Virus record (IMG/VR): IMGVR_UViG_2648501669_000012
Strand: one strand, 5' to 3'
Length of the DNA: 4,027 bases
Source: a virus
Lineage: Duplodnaviria > Heunggongvirae > Uroviricota > Caudoviricetes
A program made the position numbers and the translations under genes. Within the stretch, counting starts at the first letter, position 1. The number at the start of each line of letters is the position of its first letter. The notes under the pieces are model-generated. The model saw nothing but the letters and a program-made list of their open reading frames with translations, did not search any database and was not told the DNA's origin. Of the stretch, positions 1 to 4,027 are shown one piece after another.

Positions 1-815
1 GCCGCCTGCAATGCCCCGGCCTCATCGCCGGAACGCTGCAACTGAGCAACATACGCAATCTGCTCCGCCGTCACGTTATGGAACTGGCGTGCCATCGCTG
101 TCAGCCCTGACGTCGGGTCTGTGGTCAGCTTCCCGAAGGCTTCAGCGACCTTGTCCACCTCCACGCCGGATGCAGAGGAGAAACGCGCCACACTCTGGCT
201 GATGGACGCAATCTGAGCCTCACCGCTTACCCCCGCCTTAACCAGTGCGCTGAGTGACTCGCTGGTCTGGTCAAACGTCAGCCCTGCCGCCTGCCCGGCT
301 CTGGACAGGACCAGCATGCGATCTGCCGTCAGTCCCGCCTGATTGCCGGAAAGGACCAGCGTTTTGTTGAAATCGGACAGGGTTGAGTTGCCCTGATACC
401 AGGCATACGCCAGCGCACCGGTCGCCACCGCCAGCGAGGTGGCCCCCACCATCGGCAGGGTGATCGCACCGGCAAGCCCCCTGAACATGGGGATCATCCC
501 GCCGAAGGAGTCCTTCACCTGCCCCCCCTGTTGCAGCAGGATCAGCCACGGACTTTGCCCGCCTGCAAGCTGCGTGGCCACGTCGGTGAACTGTGCAGGC
601 AGCATACGCATGGCGGCTTTATACTGCCCGACGGAAATCCCCGCTTTCTGTGCAGCCAGCGCCTGTCGGCTCAGCGACTGTTCAACGACTGCCGCTGTTT
701 TTTTCGCATCACTTTCCGTACCGGAAAAATGACGCCTGACTCTGGCCATCTGCTCGTCAAATCTGGCCGCATCCAGACTCAAATCAACGACCAGATCGCC
801 TACCGGTTCAGCCAT
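1..815 (-). CDS. H: Tail tape measure protein, 5' portion only (first ~271 codons; gene continues beyond the left edge of the window)
   Basis: Minus-strand ATG at 815-813, preceded by AGGAGG (plus 824-829, 8-nt spacer). The frame stays open to position 1. Translation begins MAEPVGDLVVDLSLDAARFDEQMARVRRHF and reads ...IAYVAQLQRSGDEAGALQA at the window edge (both ends hand-translated), which I recognise as the N-terminus of lambda gpH. Absent from the supplied ORF track because no stop codon falls inside the window. Confidence 0.9.
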   Translation of the reverse strand, partial: MAEPVGDLVVDLSLDAARFDEQMARVRRHFSGTESDAKKTAAVVEQSLSRQALAAQKAGISVGQYKAAMRMLPAQFTDVATQLAGGQSPWLILLQQGGQVKDSFGGMIPMFRGLAGAITLPMVGATSLAVATGALAYAWYQGNSTLSDFNKTLVLSGNQAGLTADRMLVLSRAGQAAGLTFDQTSESLSALVKAGVSGEAQIASISQSVARFSSASGVEVDKVAEAFGKLTTDPTSGLTAMARQFHNVTAEQIAYVAQLQRSGDEAGALQA

Positions 816-1242
816 ACCGGACTCCTCCTGCGATCCCTTCTGATACTGTCATCAGCATTACGTCATCCTCCGTCATGTCCGCCACATCCGGGGAAGCGGG
901 GATAACTTCATTCCCGTCCGGGCCAAAGCGGACACCTCCGGCAAGCCCTGCCGCTTTCTGCATCAGCACATCATCTTCAGGCTCTTCGTCAGCCTCGCGC
1001 CGGTTCAGCAGACTGAAATCCAGCGGATGCATATCCGGATCGCTGAAAAACAGGCTGAGCACGGTGTACGTCAGCCCGGAAAAGTGCATATCCAGCAGAA
1101 CATCATGAAAATAATGGGTACTGTAAAAGCGGTGCCAGTCGGCATACTCCGTGGATGACATCCCGGCAAGCATGGCACGCCAGTCGGGTCGCCCCATCTC
1201 ACGCGCCAGTTTCAGGGCAAAACTCAGCTCACCGTCGAACAC
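808..1242 (-). CDS. T: T reading frame of the tail assembly chaperone; expressed only as the C-terminal part of the G-T fusion after a -1 frameshift, not independently initiated
   Basis: 144-codon minus-strand ORF (MFDGELSFALKLAREMGRPDWRAMLAGMSSTEYADWHRFY...GVRYG) recognisable as lambda gpT. Its first codon (plus 1240-1242) is GTG, not ATG, and lies directly after the G GGA AAG slippery heptamer in the -1 frame relative to G. Stop TGA at 808-810 overlaps the H start at 813-815. Confidence 0.85.
   Translation of the reverse strand: MFDGELSFALKLAREMGRPDWRAMLAGMSSTEYADWHRFYSTHYFHDVLLDMHFSGLTYTVLSLFFSDPDMHPLDFSLLNRREADEEPEDDVLMQKAAGLAGGVRFGPDGNEVIPASPDVADMTEDDVMLMTVSEGIAGGVRYG
824..829 (-). promoter_or_regulatory. 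Shine-Dalgarno sequence for H (AGGAGG), embedded in the 3' end of the T frame
   Basis: Plus 824-829 CCTCCT = minus AGGAGG, 8 nt upstream of the H ATG at 815-813. Confidence 0.7.
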
Positions 1243-1646
1243 TTTCCCGCAGAAACAGGCTCTGCAGGCCCGGCGTCCTCTGCCTGTTCAGGTGCATCAT
1301 TCACCACAAACTCATACATACCGGACAACCGGTACACCACGTTTTCAGCATGAGAAATTGCCTCTGTGGGCCAGGTGGTAAGCACTTCCTGCTCAATCTG
1401 TTTAACGGCTTCATTCATGGACGGCTGCGTTGTCTTCTGTGGATGGTTATGCCACAGGGACATCGCCACCACAAAAGCACCGGTTCTGATGGCGTCTTCC
1501 ACAGTAAACTTCCGGTTGCTGTCTGACTCCGCCTGTTCTGCCTGCCGTTTCATCAGGGCGAGATGCTCAATACGCTGCAGGGCTGACAGTTCAGAAAGCG
1601 TGACGGTCACGCCGTTATGTTCAAATGATTCGGTTTTCAGGAACAT
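1224..1646 (-). CDS. G: Tail assembly chaperone G (tape measure chaperone)
   Basis: 140-aa minus-strand ORF, ATG at 1646-1644 with GGAGA (plus 1654-1658) 7 nt upstream, stop TGA at 1224-1226. Protein MFLKTESFEHNGVTVTLSELSALQRIEHLALMKRQAEQ...PVSAGKCSTVS is recognisable as lambda gpG. Its 3' end overlaps the start of the T frame. Confidence 0.93.
   Translation of the reverse strand: MFLKTESFEHNGVTVTLSELSALQRIEHLALMKRQAEQAESDSNRKFTVEDAIRTGAFVVAMSLWHNHPQKTTQPSMNEAVKQIEQEVLTTWPTEAISHAENVVYRLSGMYEFVVNDAPEQAEDAGPAEPVSAGKCSTVS
1242..1248 (-). promoter_or_regulatory. Programmed -1 ribosomal frameshift slippery heptamer G GGA AAG (G to G-T fusion)
   Basis: Plus strand 1242-1248 reads CTTTCCC, so the minus strand reads GGGAAAG in the G frame as G GGA AAG (Gly-Lys near the G C-terminus, ...SAGKCSTVS*). 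The T frame is exactly -1 relative to G from this point. This is the well-known lambda G/T frameshift arrangement. Confidence 0.85.
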
Positions 1647-1653
1647 CGCTGAT

Positions 1654-1658
1654 TCTCC
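1654..1658 (-). promoter_or_regulatory. Shine-Dalgarno sequence for G (GGAGA) in the 15-nt V-G intergenic gap
   Basis: Plus 1654-1658 TCTCC = minus GGAGA, 7 nt upstream of the G ATG at 1646-1644. Confidence 0.65.
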
Positions 1659-1661
1659 GGA

Positions 1662-2402
1662 TTAACTGGCGGTGACGTTGATTTCTGCAACCGCAGCAAA
1701 CTCACCATTACCGGATACGACCGGAATGTTGACCTTGCCTGCAGCAACACCTTTCACGGTGATGGTCATACCACTGACCGACACGGTGGCTTTTGTTTTA
1801 TCCGCAGACACTGCACGGAAGCTCTTGTCGGTTGCGCCTTCCGGCTGGAATGCCACGGTCAGCGTGGTGCTCTTCCCTTTCACCACCGAGGTGCTGGCAG
1901 GCGTCACGGTCATGCCGGTTGCCGCTGTTACCGTGCTGCGATCTTCTGCCATCGACGGACGTCCCACGTTGGTGACTTTCACCGTGCGGGTGATCACTTC
2001 CTTCGCCGTCACCGCCTTACCGATACTGCTGACCCAGCCGCGGAACACATCGACCGTGCCGTTCGGGAAGCGGATTTTATAGGCACGGGTATCCCCTTCA
2101 TTAAACCACGCCAGCAGCGCCTGCTGCCCCTGCTCTCCGGGCATCCACGCCAGCGTGAAGCTGGTATCTCCGGCGGATTTCTGCCCCTGTCCGGTCGCGG
2201 CCCAGTCCGGATCTTCATCATCGAGATAACTGTCGTCATAGGACTCTGCGGTCAGTTCGCCGGGCGTCAGGTCTTTAACTTTTGCCAGACGCGACCAGTC
2301 AACGTCTGAAAGCGGGTTCGCATAAGGGTCACCGTTCCCCTTATAAACCCACAGAGTGGTTCCGGCCCCTTTCACCGGTGCCAGAGGATTTGGTGTTGGC
2401 AT
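1662..2402 (-). CDS. V: Major tail tube protein V with C-terminal Ig-like domain
   Basis: Minus-strand ORF; I call the start at the ATG at 2402-2400 (protein [22 protein letters not shown]..., 246 aa), not the upstream in-frame ATG at 2432 used by the ORF track, because GAGGA (plus 2407-2411) sits 4 nt upstream of 2402 and the upstream ATG lies inside U. Stop TAA at 1662-1664. Recognisable as lambda gpV; C-terminal ~90 residues are Thr/Val/Ser-rich, typical of an Ig-like domain. Confidence 0.92.
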
Positions 2403-2409
2403 ATCGTCC

Positions 2410-2805
2410 TCACATTTCATAGGTAATGACATAAGTCAGATCGGCTGAACTCCACAGGCCCGCATCATCGTCGCGCCGGTAGTCATAGCCACTGGCCACC
2501 ATACTGGTGATCAAATCTGACAGTGCCGGGATATCGTTCATCACCGGATAAATCCGGGACTCCATCCACGCATCCAGCTCTGAATCCGGCACCTGAGCAG
2601 GCAGGAAAACTTCGATATGCAGCGCCGCCTGCCAGGTATCGCTGTCCAGCTCTTCGCCCGTGTATTCAGCGCCGGTGAGATAAACGGCAATTGCCGGAAA
2701 ATCTTCCTCATCAAAAACAGCGGGGCGACCATCAAAAAGCGTCGCCCCGGTGTCATGCTTCTCCAGTGCATCCAGTACGGCTGCACGGAGTTCAGTATGT
2801 TTCAT
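2410..2805 (-). CDS. U: Tail tube terminator protein U
   Basis: 131-aa minus-strand ORF, ATG at 2805-2803, stop TGA at 2410-2412. Protein [48 protein letters not shown]...LTYVITYEM is recognisable as lambda gpU. Its start overlaps the Z stop as ATGA (plus 2802-2805, TCAT). Confidence 0.93.
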
Positions 2806-3380
2806 CGCTTTATTACCATTCTCAGTTGATGCTGCAGCGCATAGCCCAGCTCTTTCGGGAGACGTTCACGCCGTATCCGTTCAATATTCTGTTTAAACGC
2901 CGTGGTCAGCGGCACCGCCATCGGGATTTTCACCACATCAATGGGGTAACGGTTTTTCCCGGCCACACGCTGCATGACATGCCACCGGCCATTTTTCAGT
3001 TGCTGAATAAACGCGCCGGGAATACGACGGTTTCCCACCACAAGCACACTGCCGCCACCTTTCAGGGCTGAACGCTGCCCCTTTTTACGACGCCTGCGTC
3101 GAGACAGGACAACCCGCGCGTTACCCAGCTTTATTACGGGCAAATCCCCCCGGCTAACCCTGATTCTGGCCTGCGGATTTTTGACCGTGGCCCTTTTCAG
3201 CCTGGCCCTTTCCTTTACCAGTTTCCGGCGTACCTTTGTCTCACGGGCAACCTGTGCCACCGACTGCGATATCGCGGATGAAGCAACGCGGTTAATGGCC
3301 ATTGCGGCGGCACCGGGCACCGCCGTTCTGCTGATACGGCTGAGGTTTTCAACGGCCTGCTCAAGACCTTTTATGGCCAT
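2802..3380 (-). CDS. Z: Tail completion protein Z
   Basis: 192-aa minus-strand ORF, ATG at 3380-3378 with a G-rich Shine-Dalgarno (AAGGGGGA, plus 3384-3391) about 3-4 nt upstream, stop TGA at 2802-2804. Protein MAIKGLEQAVENLSRISRTAVPGAAAMAINRVASSAISQSVAQVARE... with a basic RRRRRKK stretch is recognisable as lambda gpZ. Confidence 0.93.
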   Translation of the reverse strand: MAIKGLEQAVENLSRISRTAVPGAAAMAINRVASSAISQSVAQVARETKVRRKLVKERARLKRATVKNPQARIRVSRGDLPVIKLGNARVVLSRRRRRKKGQRSALKGGGSVLVVGNRRIPGAFIQQLKNGRWHVMQRVAGKNRYPIDVVKIPMAVPLTTAFKQNIERIRRERLPKELGYALQHQLRMVIKR

Positions 3381-3391
3381 ACATCCCCCTT

Positions 3392-3745
3392 TCAGCGGCG
3401 ACGGTTAACGGCAGGCGGTACGCCCCGCCCAAGCCAGAGATGACAGCTTCCGCCATCATCCGGCGAAATCCGGTCTATCCAGAAGTTTTCCTCACCGATG
3501 GTCAGCGTGTCGCCGCGCCGCAGCTGCCGCACATCATCAGTCCGGACAAACAGGGACGGGCTGGAGCCTTCAACGCGCACGCCCTGTCCGGCATAGCTGA
3601 TATTTTCAGGGTCATCAAAAACACCACGTATCACAGCACCTGACTGCTCACCGGATGTCATGGTGGCTGACGTTCCCATGTACCCGCGTATCGTTTCATC
3701 GGCGCGGGCAATGGCAGCATCGAACAGGTTATCGAAATCAGCCAC
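3392..3745 (-). CDS. FII: Head-tail joining protein FII (tail attachment site on the head)
   Basis: 117-aa minus-strand ORF with a GTG start at 3745-3743 (hand-checked: GTG GCT GAT TTC GAT AAC...), preceded by GGGAGG (plus 3750-3755, 4-nt spacer). Stop TGA at 3392-3394. Protein (M)ADFDNLFDAAIARADETIRGYMGTSATMTSGEQSGAVIRGVFDDPENISYAGQGVRVEG... is recognisable as lambda gpFII. Confidence 0.9.
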   Translation of the reverse strand: MADFDNLFDAAIARADETIRGYMGTSATMTSGEQSGAVIRGVFDDPENISYAGQGVRVEGSSPSLFVRTDDVRQLRRGDTLTIGEENFWIDRISPDDGGSCHLWLGRGVPPAVNRRR

Positions 3746-3749
3746 AGCG

Positions 3750-3755
3750 CCTCCC
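3750..3755 (-). promoter_or_regulatory. Shine-Dalgarno sequence for FII (GGGAGG) in the 11-nt FI-FII gap
   Basis: Plus 3750-3755 CCTCCC = minus GGGAGG, 4 nt upstream of the FII GTG start at 3745-3743. Confidence 0.65.
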
Positions 3756-3756
3756 G

Positions 3757-4027
3757 TTATTGCATTCTGGCCAGGCCGCGCTCTGTCATTTCGGCTGCCA
3801 CACCGGCAGAGACACGAAACGCCGTTCCCGGCAGCACAAATGCCACAGGTTTATCCCGCGTGGCGTGAAGTGCATCAGTATGCAGCGTCACCAGTGCCAC
3901 GACCGTGACCAGTTCAGCCGTATCCTGAATCACGGTATCCGTCTGTGCTGATACCCTGTCTCCTATACACACCTCCAAACCCACGAGACAGGCAGAAACA
4001 TCGGATGCCGTCCTCCGATTGAAAAAA
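3757..4027 (-). CDS. FI: DNA packaging / head assembly accessory protein FI, 3' portion only (about 90 C-terminal codons; gene continues beyond the right edge)
   Basis: Minus-strand frame is open from the window edge to stop TAA at 3757-3759. C-terminal sequence ...DTVIQDTAELVTVVALVTLHTDALHATRDKPVAFVLPGTAFRVSAGVAAEMTERGLARMQ matches my recollection of the lambda gpFI C-terminal domain. The ORF track's start at 3984 is an internal GTG; the real start lies outside the window (about 128 nt beyond if the gene has lambda FI length). The first ~20 codons in the window have unusual codon usage (see findings). Confidence 0.82.
   Translation of the reverse strand, partial: FFNRRTASDVSACLVGLEVCIGDRVSAQTDTVIQDTAELVTVVALVTLHTDALHATRDKPVAFVLPGTAFRVSAGVAAEMTERGLARMQ

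What the first reader, a model, noticed from the sequence alone, without database searches (positions are those of the whole stretch)
1224..1260. Programmed -1 translational frameshift site joining G to T (G GGA AAG)
The minus strand carries the slippery heptamer G GGA AAG (plus 1242-1248) five codons before the G stop. The T frame begins in the -1 frame immediately after it, with a GTG (not ATG) first codon and no ribosome binding site of its own. This is the conserved tail assembly chaperone arrangement of long-tailed phages, in which a small fraction of ribosomes produce a G-T fusion (here about 135 G residues plus 144 T-frame residues). It is the most functionally notable recoding element in the window, but it is well described for lambda.
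Basis: partly seen in the sequence, partly recalled or inferred. Interest (0 to 1): 0.45.

Follow-up and report, generated by a model that had tools for sequence, protein, structure and literature searches.

The report
Phage lambda G–T tail-chaperone frameshift site
This is the textbook phage-lambda "slippery" site, where about one ribosome in 25–30 slips back one base to make a G-T fusion protein needed to build the tail; it is real but already fully described.

Summary
The window is a lambda-type tail module on the minus strand (FI'–FII–Z–U–V–G–T–H), 97.2% identical to phage lambda.

GGGAAAG lies at plus 1242–1248. It is phased G GGA AAG in gene G (codons 134–135), five sense codons before the G stop. 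The −1 frame runs on for 144 codons to the start of H, giving a 135 + 144 = 279-aa fusion.

From 18 nt upstream of the heptamer through all of T, the DNA is base-for-base identical to lambda. In lambda this exact site has been shown to give about 4% −1 frameshifting, producing gpGT.

Eleven relatives, down to about 36% protein identity, all keep G and T in the 0/−1 arrangement. All have an invariant A_AAG at the homologous position (G GGA AAG, A AAA AAG or G GAA AAG).

The "GTG start" of T is only a Val codon: it is GTC, GCA or GCC in relatives. It has no Shine-Dalgarno sequence. In phi80 and Flotzy, the conserved T peptide begins 23 codons before any start codon.

No convincing downstream stimulatory RNA structure was found, which agrees with the literature.

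Verdict: already known, low interest. Side note: plus 3956–4021 is untrimmed Illumina Nextera adapter.

The parts
1655..1658 (-). Shine-Dalgarno GGAG of gene G. It is the only ribosome entry point for both gpG and gpGT.
   Evidence: Sequence. Anti-SD duplex -6.6 kcal/mol, 7 nt from the ATG.
1224..1646 (-). Gene G, the tail assembly chaperone (140 aa, zero frame). ATG at 1646, stop TGA at 1226-1224.
   Evidence: ORF. PF06894 at 8.6e-59. TIGR01674 equivalog at 215 bits. Five aa differences from lambda G.
1242..1248 (-). Slippery heptamer G GGA AAG (G codons 134-135, Gly-Lys). This is the site of the -1 tandem tRNA slip to GGG AAA.
   Evidence: for phase. Identical to lambda. Homologous position conserved in 11 relatives, with A_AAG invariant.
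1224..1287 (-). G/T overlap. The -1 frame is open from 1287 (15 codons upstream of the GTG), and the G frame ends at 1224.
808..1242 (-). T reading frame (-1 relative to G; 144 codons), annotated conventionally from GTG 1242. It is translated as the C-terminal domain of gpGT. The fusion CDS is join(complement 1242..1646, complement 808..1242), 279 aa.
   Evidence: PF06223. TIGR01715 equivalog at 189 bits, with the match starting at T residue 5. Zero nt differences from lambda T.
808..815 (-). T stop / H start overlap, ATGGCTGA. The tape-measure gene H starts at 815 with a strong SD (GGAGGA).
   Evidence: H anti-SD duplex -10.3 kcal/mol. H matches PF06791.

Best explanation
This is the lambda G/GT programmed -1 ribosomal frameshift site.

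How it works:
1. Ribosomes start at the G ATG (1646).
2. When GGA (Gly134) is in the P site and AAG (Lys135) is in the A site, a small fraction slips. In those ribosomes the two tRNAs (tRNA-Gly and the single E. coli tRNA-Lys, anticodon mnm5s2UUU) un-pair and re-pair one base back, on GGG AAA.
3. Those ribosomes then read GTG TTC GAC ... in the -1 frame. They bypass the G stop and add the 144-residue T domain, giving a 279-aa gpGT.
4. The rest, about 96% in lambda, terminate five codons later as the 140-aa gpG.

The shared Gly-Lys dipeptide means the shift changes no residue at the site itself.

Functionally, gpG and the G part of gpGT coat the tape-measure protein gpH. The T part recruits the tube protein gpV. 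The fixed, roughly 30:1 ratio set by the slip frequency is needed for tail assembly, and neither protein ends up in the virion.

Shown here: the anatomy, the phase, the identity to lambda, the family membership, comparative conservation of the site and of the 0/-1 arrangement, the lack of a start signal for T, and the lack of a convincing RNA stimulator.

Taken from the literature on the identical lambda sequence: that the fusion is made, its rate, the tRNA-Lys dependence and the chaperone roles.
For: (1) Phase and geometry.

(2) The window is 97.2% identical to lambda 7402-11356. There are zero differences over 542 nt from plus 1265 to 724, covering the heptamer and all of T.

(3) G and T match the lambda equivalog and Pfam models. 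The gene order V-G-T-H is as in lambda.

(4) tblastn with the 279-aa fusion finds 185 phage records. All 40 listed rows come back as two pieces (or one piece covering T only), meaning G and T are in different frames, down to about 36% identity.

(5) In all 11 fetched relatives:
- the -1 frame is open across the G stop for 107-146 codons;
- a slip motif lies at the homologous codon: G GGA AAG in lambda, 434, Turner, Stx2a and PhiR12_2*; A AAA AAG in Stx1_1649 and ASU11; G GAA AAG in HK225, Flotzy, phi80, Fels-1 and Tritos;
- A_AAG is invariant.

(6) The T-frame peptide immediately after the site is conserved (xFxGELxFxLKLAREMGRPDWRAML), but no start codon is:
- the GTG is GTC, GCA or GCC in relatives;
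- Flotzy and phi80 have no ATG/GTG/TTG before codon +23.

(7) There is no SD for T.

(8) Literature (PMC3296357; PMC5009743; PMC7618472):
- lambda GGGAAAG is the G/GT slippery sequence;
- the zero frame is kept about 96% of the time, and a 30:1 ratio is crucial;
- hypomodified tRNA-Lys raises the shift;

(9) One deposited record, phage 434B (OL657227), carries a joined GT CDS whose listed 30 nt upstream of the heptamer and 54 nt downstream are identical to the window.
Against: Nothing substantive.
- No protein-level data exist for this particular contig.
- The heptamer alone is not statistically unusual.
- The most distant relatives use G GAA AAG, which is not a strict X XXY YYZ. The P-site re-pairing requirement is therefore looser than the simple tandem-slip model implies.
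- Most database records, including RefSeq lambda and PGAP prophages, still list T as a separate CDS. That is an annotation habit, not evidence.
Confidence: 0.96

Rival explanations
1. T is an ordinary separate gene, translated from its own start: the GTG at 1242 or the internal ATG at 1197 that several auto-annotations use. On this reading the heptamer is incidental.
For: - Many records annotate T as a stand-alone CDS.
- Some start it at internal ATGs (Turner, PhiR12_2*, ASU11).
- A GTG does sit at codon 0 in the window.
Against: - No Shine-Dalgarno: -4.3 kcal/mol with a 1-nt gap for the GTG, and -2.3 for the ATG at +15.
- The GTG is not conserved: it is GTC, GCA or GCC in relatives.
- No start codon is positionally conserved. 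phi80 and Flotzy have none before codon +23, although the peptide encoded upstream of that is conserved.
- The NCBIfam T equivalog model already aligns from T residue 5.
- Literature on the identical lambda sequence describes T as expressed as gpGT.
Confidence: 0.02
2. The fusion arises by transcriptional slippage: RNA polymerase adds or drops a base in the A run. It does not arise by ribosomal slippage.
For: The Stx1_1649 and ASU11 relatives carry a run of six A at the site, approaching lengths where polymerase slippage becomes measurable. Atkins et al. note that both processes may occur at some sites.
Against: - The window and lambda have only three consecutive A (GGGAAAG), far too short for efficient polymerase slippage (established knowledge).
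- The conserved element is A_AAG in phase with the zero frame, not run length. That is the signature of tRNA-Lys slippage.
- The shift frequency in lambda responds to tRNA-Lys U34 thiolation (PMC3296357).
Confidence: 0.01
3. The site is a chance heptamer, or a decayed prophage remnant that no longer makes a functional G/GT pair.
For: - GGGAAAG is expected 0.58 times per window by chance.
- Lambda-like tail modules are present in 4,028 of 5,426 E. coli genomes, and many such modules lie in defective prophages (general knowledge, not tested here).
- The contig is only a fragment.
Against: - All seven ORFs in the window are intact, with full-length family matches.
- T is identical to lambda T.
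- Phase and position are conserved across relatives.
- The Nextera adapter at the contig end shows the truncation is technical, not biological.
Confidence: 0.01

Closest known systems
Bacteriophage lambda G/GT -1 programmed ribosomal frameshift (Levin, Hendrix & Casjens 1993; Xu, Hendrix & Duda 2013/2014)
   Same: - Identical heptamer, phase, distance to the G stop, T sequence and fusion length (279 aa).
- Identical flanking DNA from 18 nt upstream of the heptamer to the end of T.
- Same gene neighbourhood, V-G-T-H.
   Different: Only five amino-acid substitutions in the G part (L59V, Q73T, M74Q, N117D, T122A) and 18 nt differences, all upstream of the site. No functional difference is expected.
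Conserved tail-assembly-chaperone frameshift of long-tailed dsDNA phages (Xu, Hendrix & Duda 2004, Mol Cell)
   Same: - Two overlapping ORFs between the major tail gene and the tape-measure gene.
- The second ORF is reached by a low-level frameshift near the end of the first.
- Neither product is in the virion.
   Different: This is the founding lambda-type member itself. Other members have unrelated sequences and other slip motifs, and some use -2 or +1 shifts (Mu, HSTV-2).
E. coli dnaX and IS-element -1 frameshift signals (A AAA AAG with stimulators)
   Same: The same A-site logic: the single E. coli tRNA-Lys slipping from AAG to AAA. X_XXA_AAG heptamers are the most shift-prone class in E. 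coli.
   Different: - dnaX uses an upstream internal Shine-Dalgarno and a downstream hairpin to reach about 50% (established knowledge).
- Here no SD-like motif lies at a stimulatory distance upstream. The nearest GAGGA starts about 32 nt upstream of the heptamer (sequence).
- The downstream fold is not an outlier.
- Both points are consistent with a low, unstimulated shift of about 4%.

Membership tests
Lambda-type tail assembly chaperone G/GT frameshift | Two overlapping ORFs located between the major tail (tube) gene and the tape-measure gene. | tested here: met
   V (PF16461) at 2402-1662, G at 1646-1224, T at 1242-808 and H (PF06791) from 815. The order is the same as in the lambda annotation.
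Lambda-type tail assembly chaperone G/GT frameshift | The downstream ORF is in the -1 frame relative to the upstream ORF and is open across the upstream stop. | tested here: met
   The -1 frame is open from 20 codons before the G stop to 138 codons after it. The +1 frame closes after 8 codons.
Lambda-type tail assembly chaperone G/GT frameshift | A slippery heptamer X XXY YYZ in zero-frame phase inside the overlap. | tested here: met
   G GGA AAG at 1248-1242, codons 134-135, five codons before the stop. It is the only X XXA AAG in 1,247 codons.
Lambda-type tail assembly chaperone G/GT frameshift | Sequence homology of both parts to lambda gpG and gpT. | tested here: met
   TIGR01674 at 215 bits (cut-off 74) and TIGR01715 at 189 bits (cut-off 77). 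PF06894 and PF06223. T is 100% and G is 96% identical to lambda.
Lambda-type tail assembly chaperone G/GT frameshift | The downstream ORF lacks its own translation initiation signal. | tested here: met
   No SD upstream of GTG 1242 or of ATG 1197. No positionally conserved start codon among 12 sequences, while the upstream T-frame peptide is conserved.
Lambda-type tail assembly chaperone G/GT frameshift | The site and the frame arrangement are conserved in diverged relatives. | tested here: met
   All 11 relatives, down to about 36% protein identity, keep the 0/-1 arrangement and an A_AAG motif at the homologous codon.
Lambda-type tail assembly chaperone G/GT frameshift | The fusion protein is actually produced at a low, fixed frequency (about 4%) and is required for tail assembly. 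| not testable with these tools
   Shown experimentally for lambda, whose sequence is identical here from 18 nt upstream of the heptamer through T (literature; identity).
Stimulated -1 PRF signals (dnaX / IS / retroviral type) | A stable downstream hairpin or pseudoknot 5-9 nt after the heptamer, maintained by selection. | tested here: inconclusive
   - The 100-nt MFE has a stem starting 7 nt after the site, but z = -1.55. The 60-nt fold has z = +0.67.
- Some double-sided changes occur across relatives (6 pairs), but the RNAalifold covariation term is only -0.11 kcal/mol.
- Synonymous-resampling z is -1.8 in the window and averages -1.9 over 12 sequences. The background over 108 coding windows is -0.52 +/- 1.02, and 8% of those windows are as extreme.
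- No Rfam family matches.
Stimulated -1 PRF signals (dnaX / IS / retroviral type) | An internal Shine-Dalgarno-like stimulator about 10-14 nt upstream of the heptamer. | tested here: not met
   The 30 nt upstream (ggacgccgggcctgcagagcctgtttctgc) hold no GGAG, GAGG or AGGA. The nearest GAGGA starts about 32 nt upstream.

The most novel reading that the evidence does not exclude
The 70-80 nt after the heptamer (about plus 1227-1157) may form a weakly conserved stem structure, with helices at alignment columns 15-22/78-85 and 42-56/61-75. Such a structure could tune the slip frequency in lambda-like phages, contrary to the prevailing view that the G/GT shift is unstimulated. The evidence is a few compensatory changes and consistently negative folding z-scores in all 12 relatives. 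The segment is not an outlier against other coding windows, and it encodes a highly conserved peptide.
Probability: 0.08. Interest if true: 0.3.

Novelty: already known. Interest (0 to 1): 0.1.

Why it matters
- It matters for annotation, not discovery. The correct gene model is a joined 279-aa GT CDS plus the 140-aa G CDS, not a stand-alone T gene starting at GTG.
- Most public records of this module, including RefSeq lambda and PGAP prophage calls, still list T separately or start it at arbitrary internal ATGs.
- The gpG:gpGT ratio set by this site is essential for lambda tail assembly and depends on host tRNA-Lys modification. The site is therefore a known point of host–phage interplay.
- Nothing about this copy differs from lambda in a way that would change that picture.

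Tried and rejected
**1. Downstream stimulatory RNA structure**
- I folded 60 and 100 nt after the site and tested the MFE structure and an RNAalifold consensus on 10 diverged relatives.
- I ran synonymous-codon resampling on 12 sequences. The results looked suggestive (mean z = −1.9, 6 pairs with double-sided changes).
- Calibration over 108 coding windows showed a biased null (mean z = −0.52), with 8% of windows as extreme.
- Rejected as a demonstrated feature and kept only as the low-probability novel reading.

**2. Independent initiation of T.** Rejected on the SD and start-codon conservation analysis.

**3. Statistical rarity of the bare heptamer.** It is not rare, so the significance rests on phase, place and conservation.

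**4. Rfam.** No family at the site. The only hit is a sub-threshold chance miRNA match elsewhere.

**5. PDB by sequence.** No solved relative of G/GT.

**6. Primary papers.** Levin 1993 (PMID 8230192) and Xu 2013 (PMC3762263) are not held. The experimental facts are therefore cited through Maynard 2012, Atkins 2016 and the 2023 Annual Review.

**7. The non-lambda 72 nt at the window edge.**
- I first considered a mosaic FI N-terminus or an IS end.
- It proved to be a library adapter.

Full report
**What the window is**

On the minus strand the window carries intact ORFs that match the following families.

| Gene | Plus coordinates | Family match |
|---|---|---|
| FI, C-terminal part | to 3757 | none run; corresponds to lambda FI by position |
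| FII | 3745–3392 | PF05354 |
| Z | 3380–2802 | PF06763 |
| U | 2805–2410 | PF06141 |
| V, tail tube | 2402–1662 | PF16461 + Big_2 |
| G | 1646–1224 | PF06894 |
| T | 1242–808 | PF06223 |
| H, tape measure, 5′ part | 815–1 | PF06791 |

- Megablast places the window at lambda 7402–11356 with 97.2% identity. The closest phages (PhiR26_1, mEp332) reach 97.8–97.9%, and the closest E. coli prophages 98.3%.
- The lambda RefSeq annotation maps G (9711–10133) and T (10115–10549) exactly onto the two window ORFs.

**Checking the observation**

- The single minus-strand GGGAAAG is at plus 1242–1248. It is phased G GGA AAG in G (Gly134, Lys135).
- It is followed by five sense codons (CSTVS) and TGA at 1226–1224.
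- The −1 frame is open from 1287 and continues for 144 codons from the last G of the heptamer to the stop at 810–808. That stop overlaps the H start (ATGGCTGA).
- A −1 shift therefore yields 135 + 144 = 279 aa, lambda's gpGT length.
  - The GTG "first codon" of T overlaps the final base of the heptamer.
  - The −1 frame is open 15 codons further upstream.
- The heptamer on its own is not improbable (0.58 expected per window). In-frame X XXY YYZ motifs, however, are scarce: 4 in 1,247 codons, and one of the X XXA AAG class.

**Identity to the experimentally characterised site**

- Across G–T there are 18 nucleotide differences from lambda. All lie upstream of the site, and the nearest is at 1266.
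- From 1265 to 724, which is 542 nt covering the heptamer, all of T and the start of H, there are none. FI through G differ by 2.0–5.0%.
- The T protein is identical to lambda T. G has five substitutions.
- The element in the window is therefore the lambda element, base for base.

**What is known about that element** (literature; the primary papers were not held)

- Maynard et al. 2012 (PMC3296357):
  - They list lambda GGGAAAG as the G/GT slippery sequence.
  - The zero frame is kept about 96% of the time.
  - Gly-Lys is encoded in both frames.
  - Both Lys codons are read by tRNA-Lys(UUU), and loss of U34 thiolation raises frameshifting and lowers phage yield.
- Atkins et al. 2016 (PMC5009743):
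  - G and the G part of GT bind the tape-measure protein gpH, and the T domain binds gpV. Neither is in the virion.
  - G_GGA_AAG is highly shift-prone in E. coli.
- The 2023 Annual Review (PMC7618472) repeats these points.

**Independent comparative test**

- tblastn with the 279-aa fusion against 50,697 phage records gave 185 matching records. All 40 listed rows return G and T as two separate pieces, or T alone, down to about 36% identity.
- I fetched 11 relatives spanning that range and analysed the junctions.
- In every one, the −1 frame is open across the G stop for 107–146 codons.
- In every one, a slip motif sits at the homologous position. It is 5 codons before the G stop in most relatives and 1 codon before it in Fels-1 and Tritos.

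| Slip motif | Phages |
|---|---|
| G GGA AAG | lambda, 434, Turner, Stx2a_EH1535, PhiR12_2* |
| A AAA AAG | Stx1_1649, ASU11 |
| G GAA AAG | HK225, Flotzy, phi80, Fels-1, Tritos |

- The A-site A_AAG is invariant, while the P-site codon varies. In the last group it no longer satisfies strict X XXY YYZ.
- This fits the view that in E. coli the A-site tRNA-Lys slip is the driver.

**Against independent initiation of T**

- The best anti-SD pairing upstream of the GTG is −4.3 kcal/mol with a 1-nt gap, at the 34th percentile of all windows.
- The corresponding values are −10.3 to −10.7 kcal/mol for FII, Z and H, and −6.6 kcal/mol for G.
- Across relatives the GTG becomes GTC, GCA or GCC, so it is simply a Val/Ala codon.
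- No start codon is positionally conserved. Flotzy and phi80 have none before T-frame codon +23.
- Yet the peptide encoded from codon 0 is conserved (xFxGELxFxLKLAREMGRPDWRAML).
- The curated TIGR01715 model aligns from T residue 5.
- The conserved coding sequence therefore starts upstream of any possible initiation codon, so it must be entered from the G frame.

**Stimulatory elements**

- No SD-like motif lies within 30 nt upstream.
- Downstream folds:
  - The 100-nt MFE places a stem 7 nt after the site but is not significantly stable (z = −1.55).
  - The 60-nt fold is unremarkable (z = +0.67).
- On a gap-free alignment of 10 distinct relatives:
  - That structure keeps 82.6% of cells paired and has 6 pairs with double-sided changes. 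This exceeds the shuffle and slide controls.
  - The RNAalifold covariation term is only −0.11 kcal/mol.
- Against synonymous resampling that preserves the T peptide, all 12 sequences fold better than expected (mean z = −1.9).
- Calibration over 108 in-frame windows of the window's genes shows the null is biased (mean z = −0.52, sd 1.02). Eight percent of windows are as extreme.
- I conclude there is no demonstrated stimulator, in line with the literature. A weak tuning structure remains a low-probability possibility.
- Rfam has no family here.

**Mechanism (best explanation)**

1. All ribosomes load at the G RBS/ATG.
2. At GGA(P)/AAG(A), a few percent undergo tandem −1 re-pairing to GGG/AAA, then decode GTG (Val) and the T frame, giving gpGT.
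3. The rest terminate as gpG.

The slip frequency hard-wires the chaperone stoichiometry. The anatomy, conservation and lack of a T start are shown here. The product, rate, tRNA dependence and chaperone roles are inferred from published work on the identical lambda sequence.

**Rivals**

- Independent T initiation, about 0.02.
- Transcriptional slippage, about 0.01. Three A's are too few, and what is conserved is phased A_AAG.
- A chance or decayed site, about 0.01. The ORFs are intact and the position is conserved.

**Novelty and score**

This is the founding example of the tail-assembly-chaperone frameshift, in a phage or prophage 97% identical to lambda. It is already known. Interest is 0.1. 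The practical value is annotation: a joined GT CDS. Only the phage 434B record among those inspected has one.

**Side observations**

- The outermost bases of the window are technical:
  - Plus 3956–4021 match the Illumina Nextera P7–N703–Read2/mosaic-end adapter at 56 of 66 positions, with the index exact. The next-best offset matches 32 of 66 (adapter sequence quoted from memory).
  - The match ends exactly where FI homology starts.
  - The stretch hits only the ends of unrelated phage contigs and no E. coli genome.
- The step from 2–5% to 0% divergence from lambda at about 1265 marks a mosaic boundary close to the G|T domain junction.

Noticed in passing
window 3956-4027: Plus 3956-4021 (minus-strand bases 7-72) is an untrimmed Illumina Nextera P7 adapter + N703 index (TTCTGCCT, exact) + Read-2/Tn5 mosaic end. 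It matches at 56/66 positions ungapped, and the next-best offset in the window matches 32/66. It ends exactly where lambda FI homology begins, and 4022-4027 is T6. The segment matches only the ends of unrelated phage contigs (Paenibacillus, Listeria, T4-like, 'Bacteriophage sp.') and no complete E. coli genome. The window is therefore the end of an assembled contig, and FI is cut off artificially. The canonical adapter sequence was quoted from memory.
   Followed up: yes
window 724-1265 versus 1266-3955: Divergence from lambda changes sharply. It is 2.0-5.0% in FI, FII, Z, U, V and the 5' 90% of G. It is then 0 differences in 542 nt from 1265 to 724 (the heptamer, all of T and the start of H), and about 1% in H. 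This looks like a recombination (mosaic) boundary about 18 nt upstream of the slip site, at the G|T domain junction.
   Followed up: partly
L010-L014 (HK225, Flotzy, phi80, Fels-1, Tritos), G/T junctions: The more distant relatives carry G GAA AAG at the homologous position. That is not a strict X XXY YYZ heptamer, because P-site GAA would re-pair with GGA. A_AAG is invariant across all 12 sequences, and the Stx1/ASU11 lineage uses A AAA AAG.
   Followed up: partly
window 1157-1234 (minus strand, downstream of the heptamer): A predicted stem starts 7 nt after the heptamer. It shows a few compensatory changes among relatives and consistently negative folding z-scores (mean -1.9 over 12 sequences). 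After calibration against other coding windows it is not an outlier, since 8% are as extreme.
   Followed up: yes
L001, L003, L004, L005, L007, L009, L015 (database annotation of T): Public records are inconsistent. RefSeq lambda and the PGAP prophage call inspected (L004) list G and T as separate CDSs. The records for Turner, PhiR12_2* and ASU11 start T at internal ATGs. Among the records inspected, only phage 434B (OL657227) carries a joined GT CDS.
   Followed up: partly
search hit H20, MW057783.1: The record named 'Campylobacter phage CJLB-4' (host Campylobacter jejuni, 48,361 bp) matches this lambda tail region with the same coverage, identity (97.2%) and bit score as phage lambda itself. 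It looks like lambda DNA deposited under a Campylobacter phage name.
   Followed up: no
window 522-528, 3030-3036 and 3078-3084 (minus strand): Three other in-frame X XXY YYZ heptamers exist: G GGG GGG in H (a run of seven G at 528-522), and G GGA AAC and A AAG GGG in Z. I did not examine whether any -1 ORF follows them. The 506-655 bin that contains the H run shows no differences from lambda.
   Followed up: no
window 2402-2432: The mechanical V ORF extends to an ATG at 2432 (256 aa), overlapping the end of U. Lambda RefSeq starts V at the ATG equivalent to 2402 (246 aa, with a GAGGA Shine-Dalgarno), whereas the HK630 record uses the longer form.
   Followed up: no
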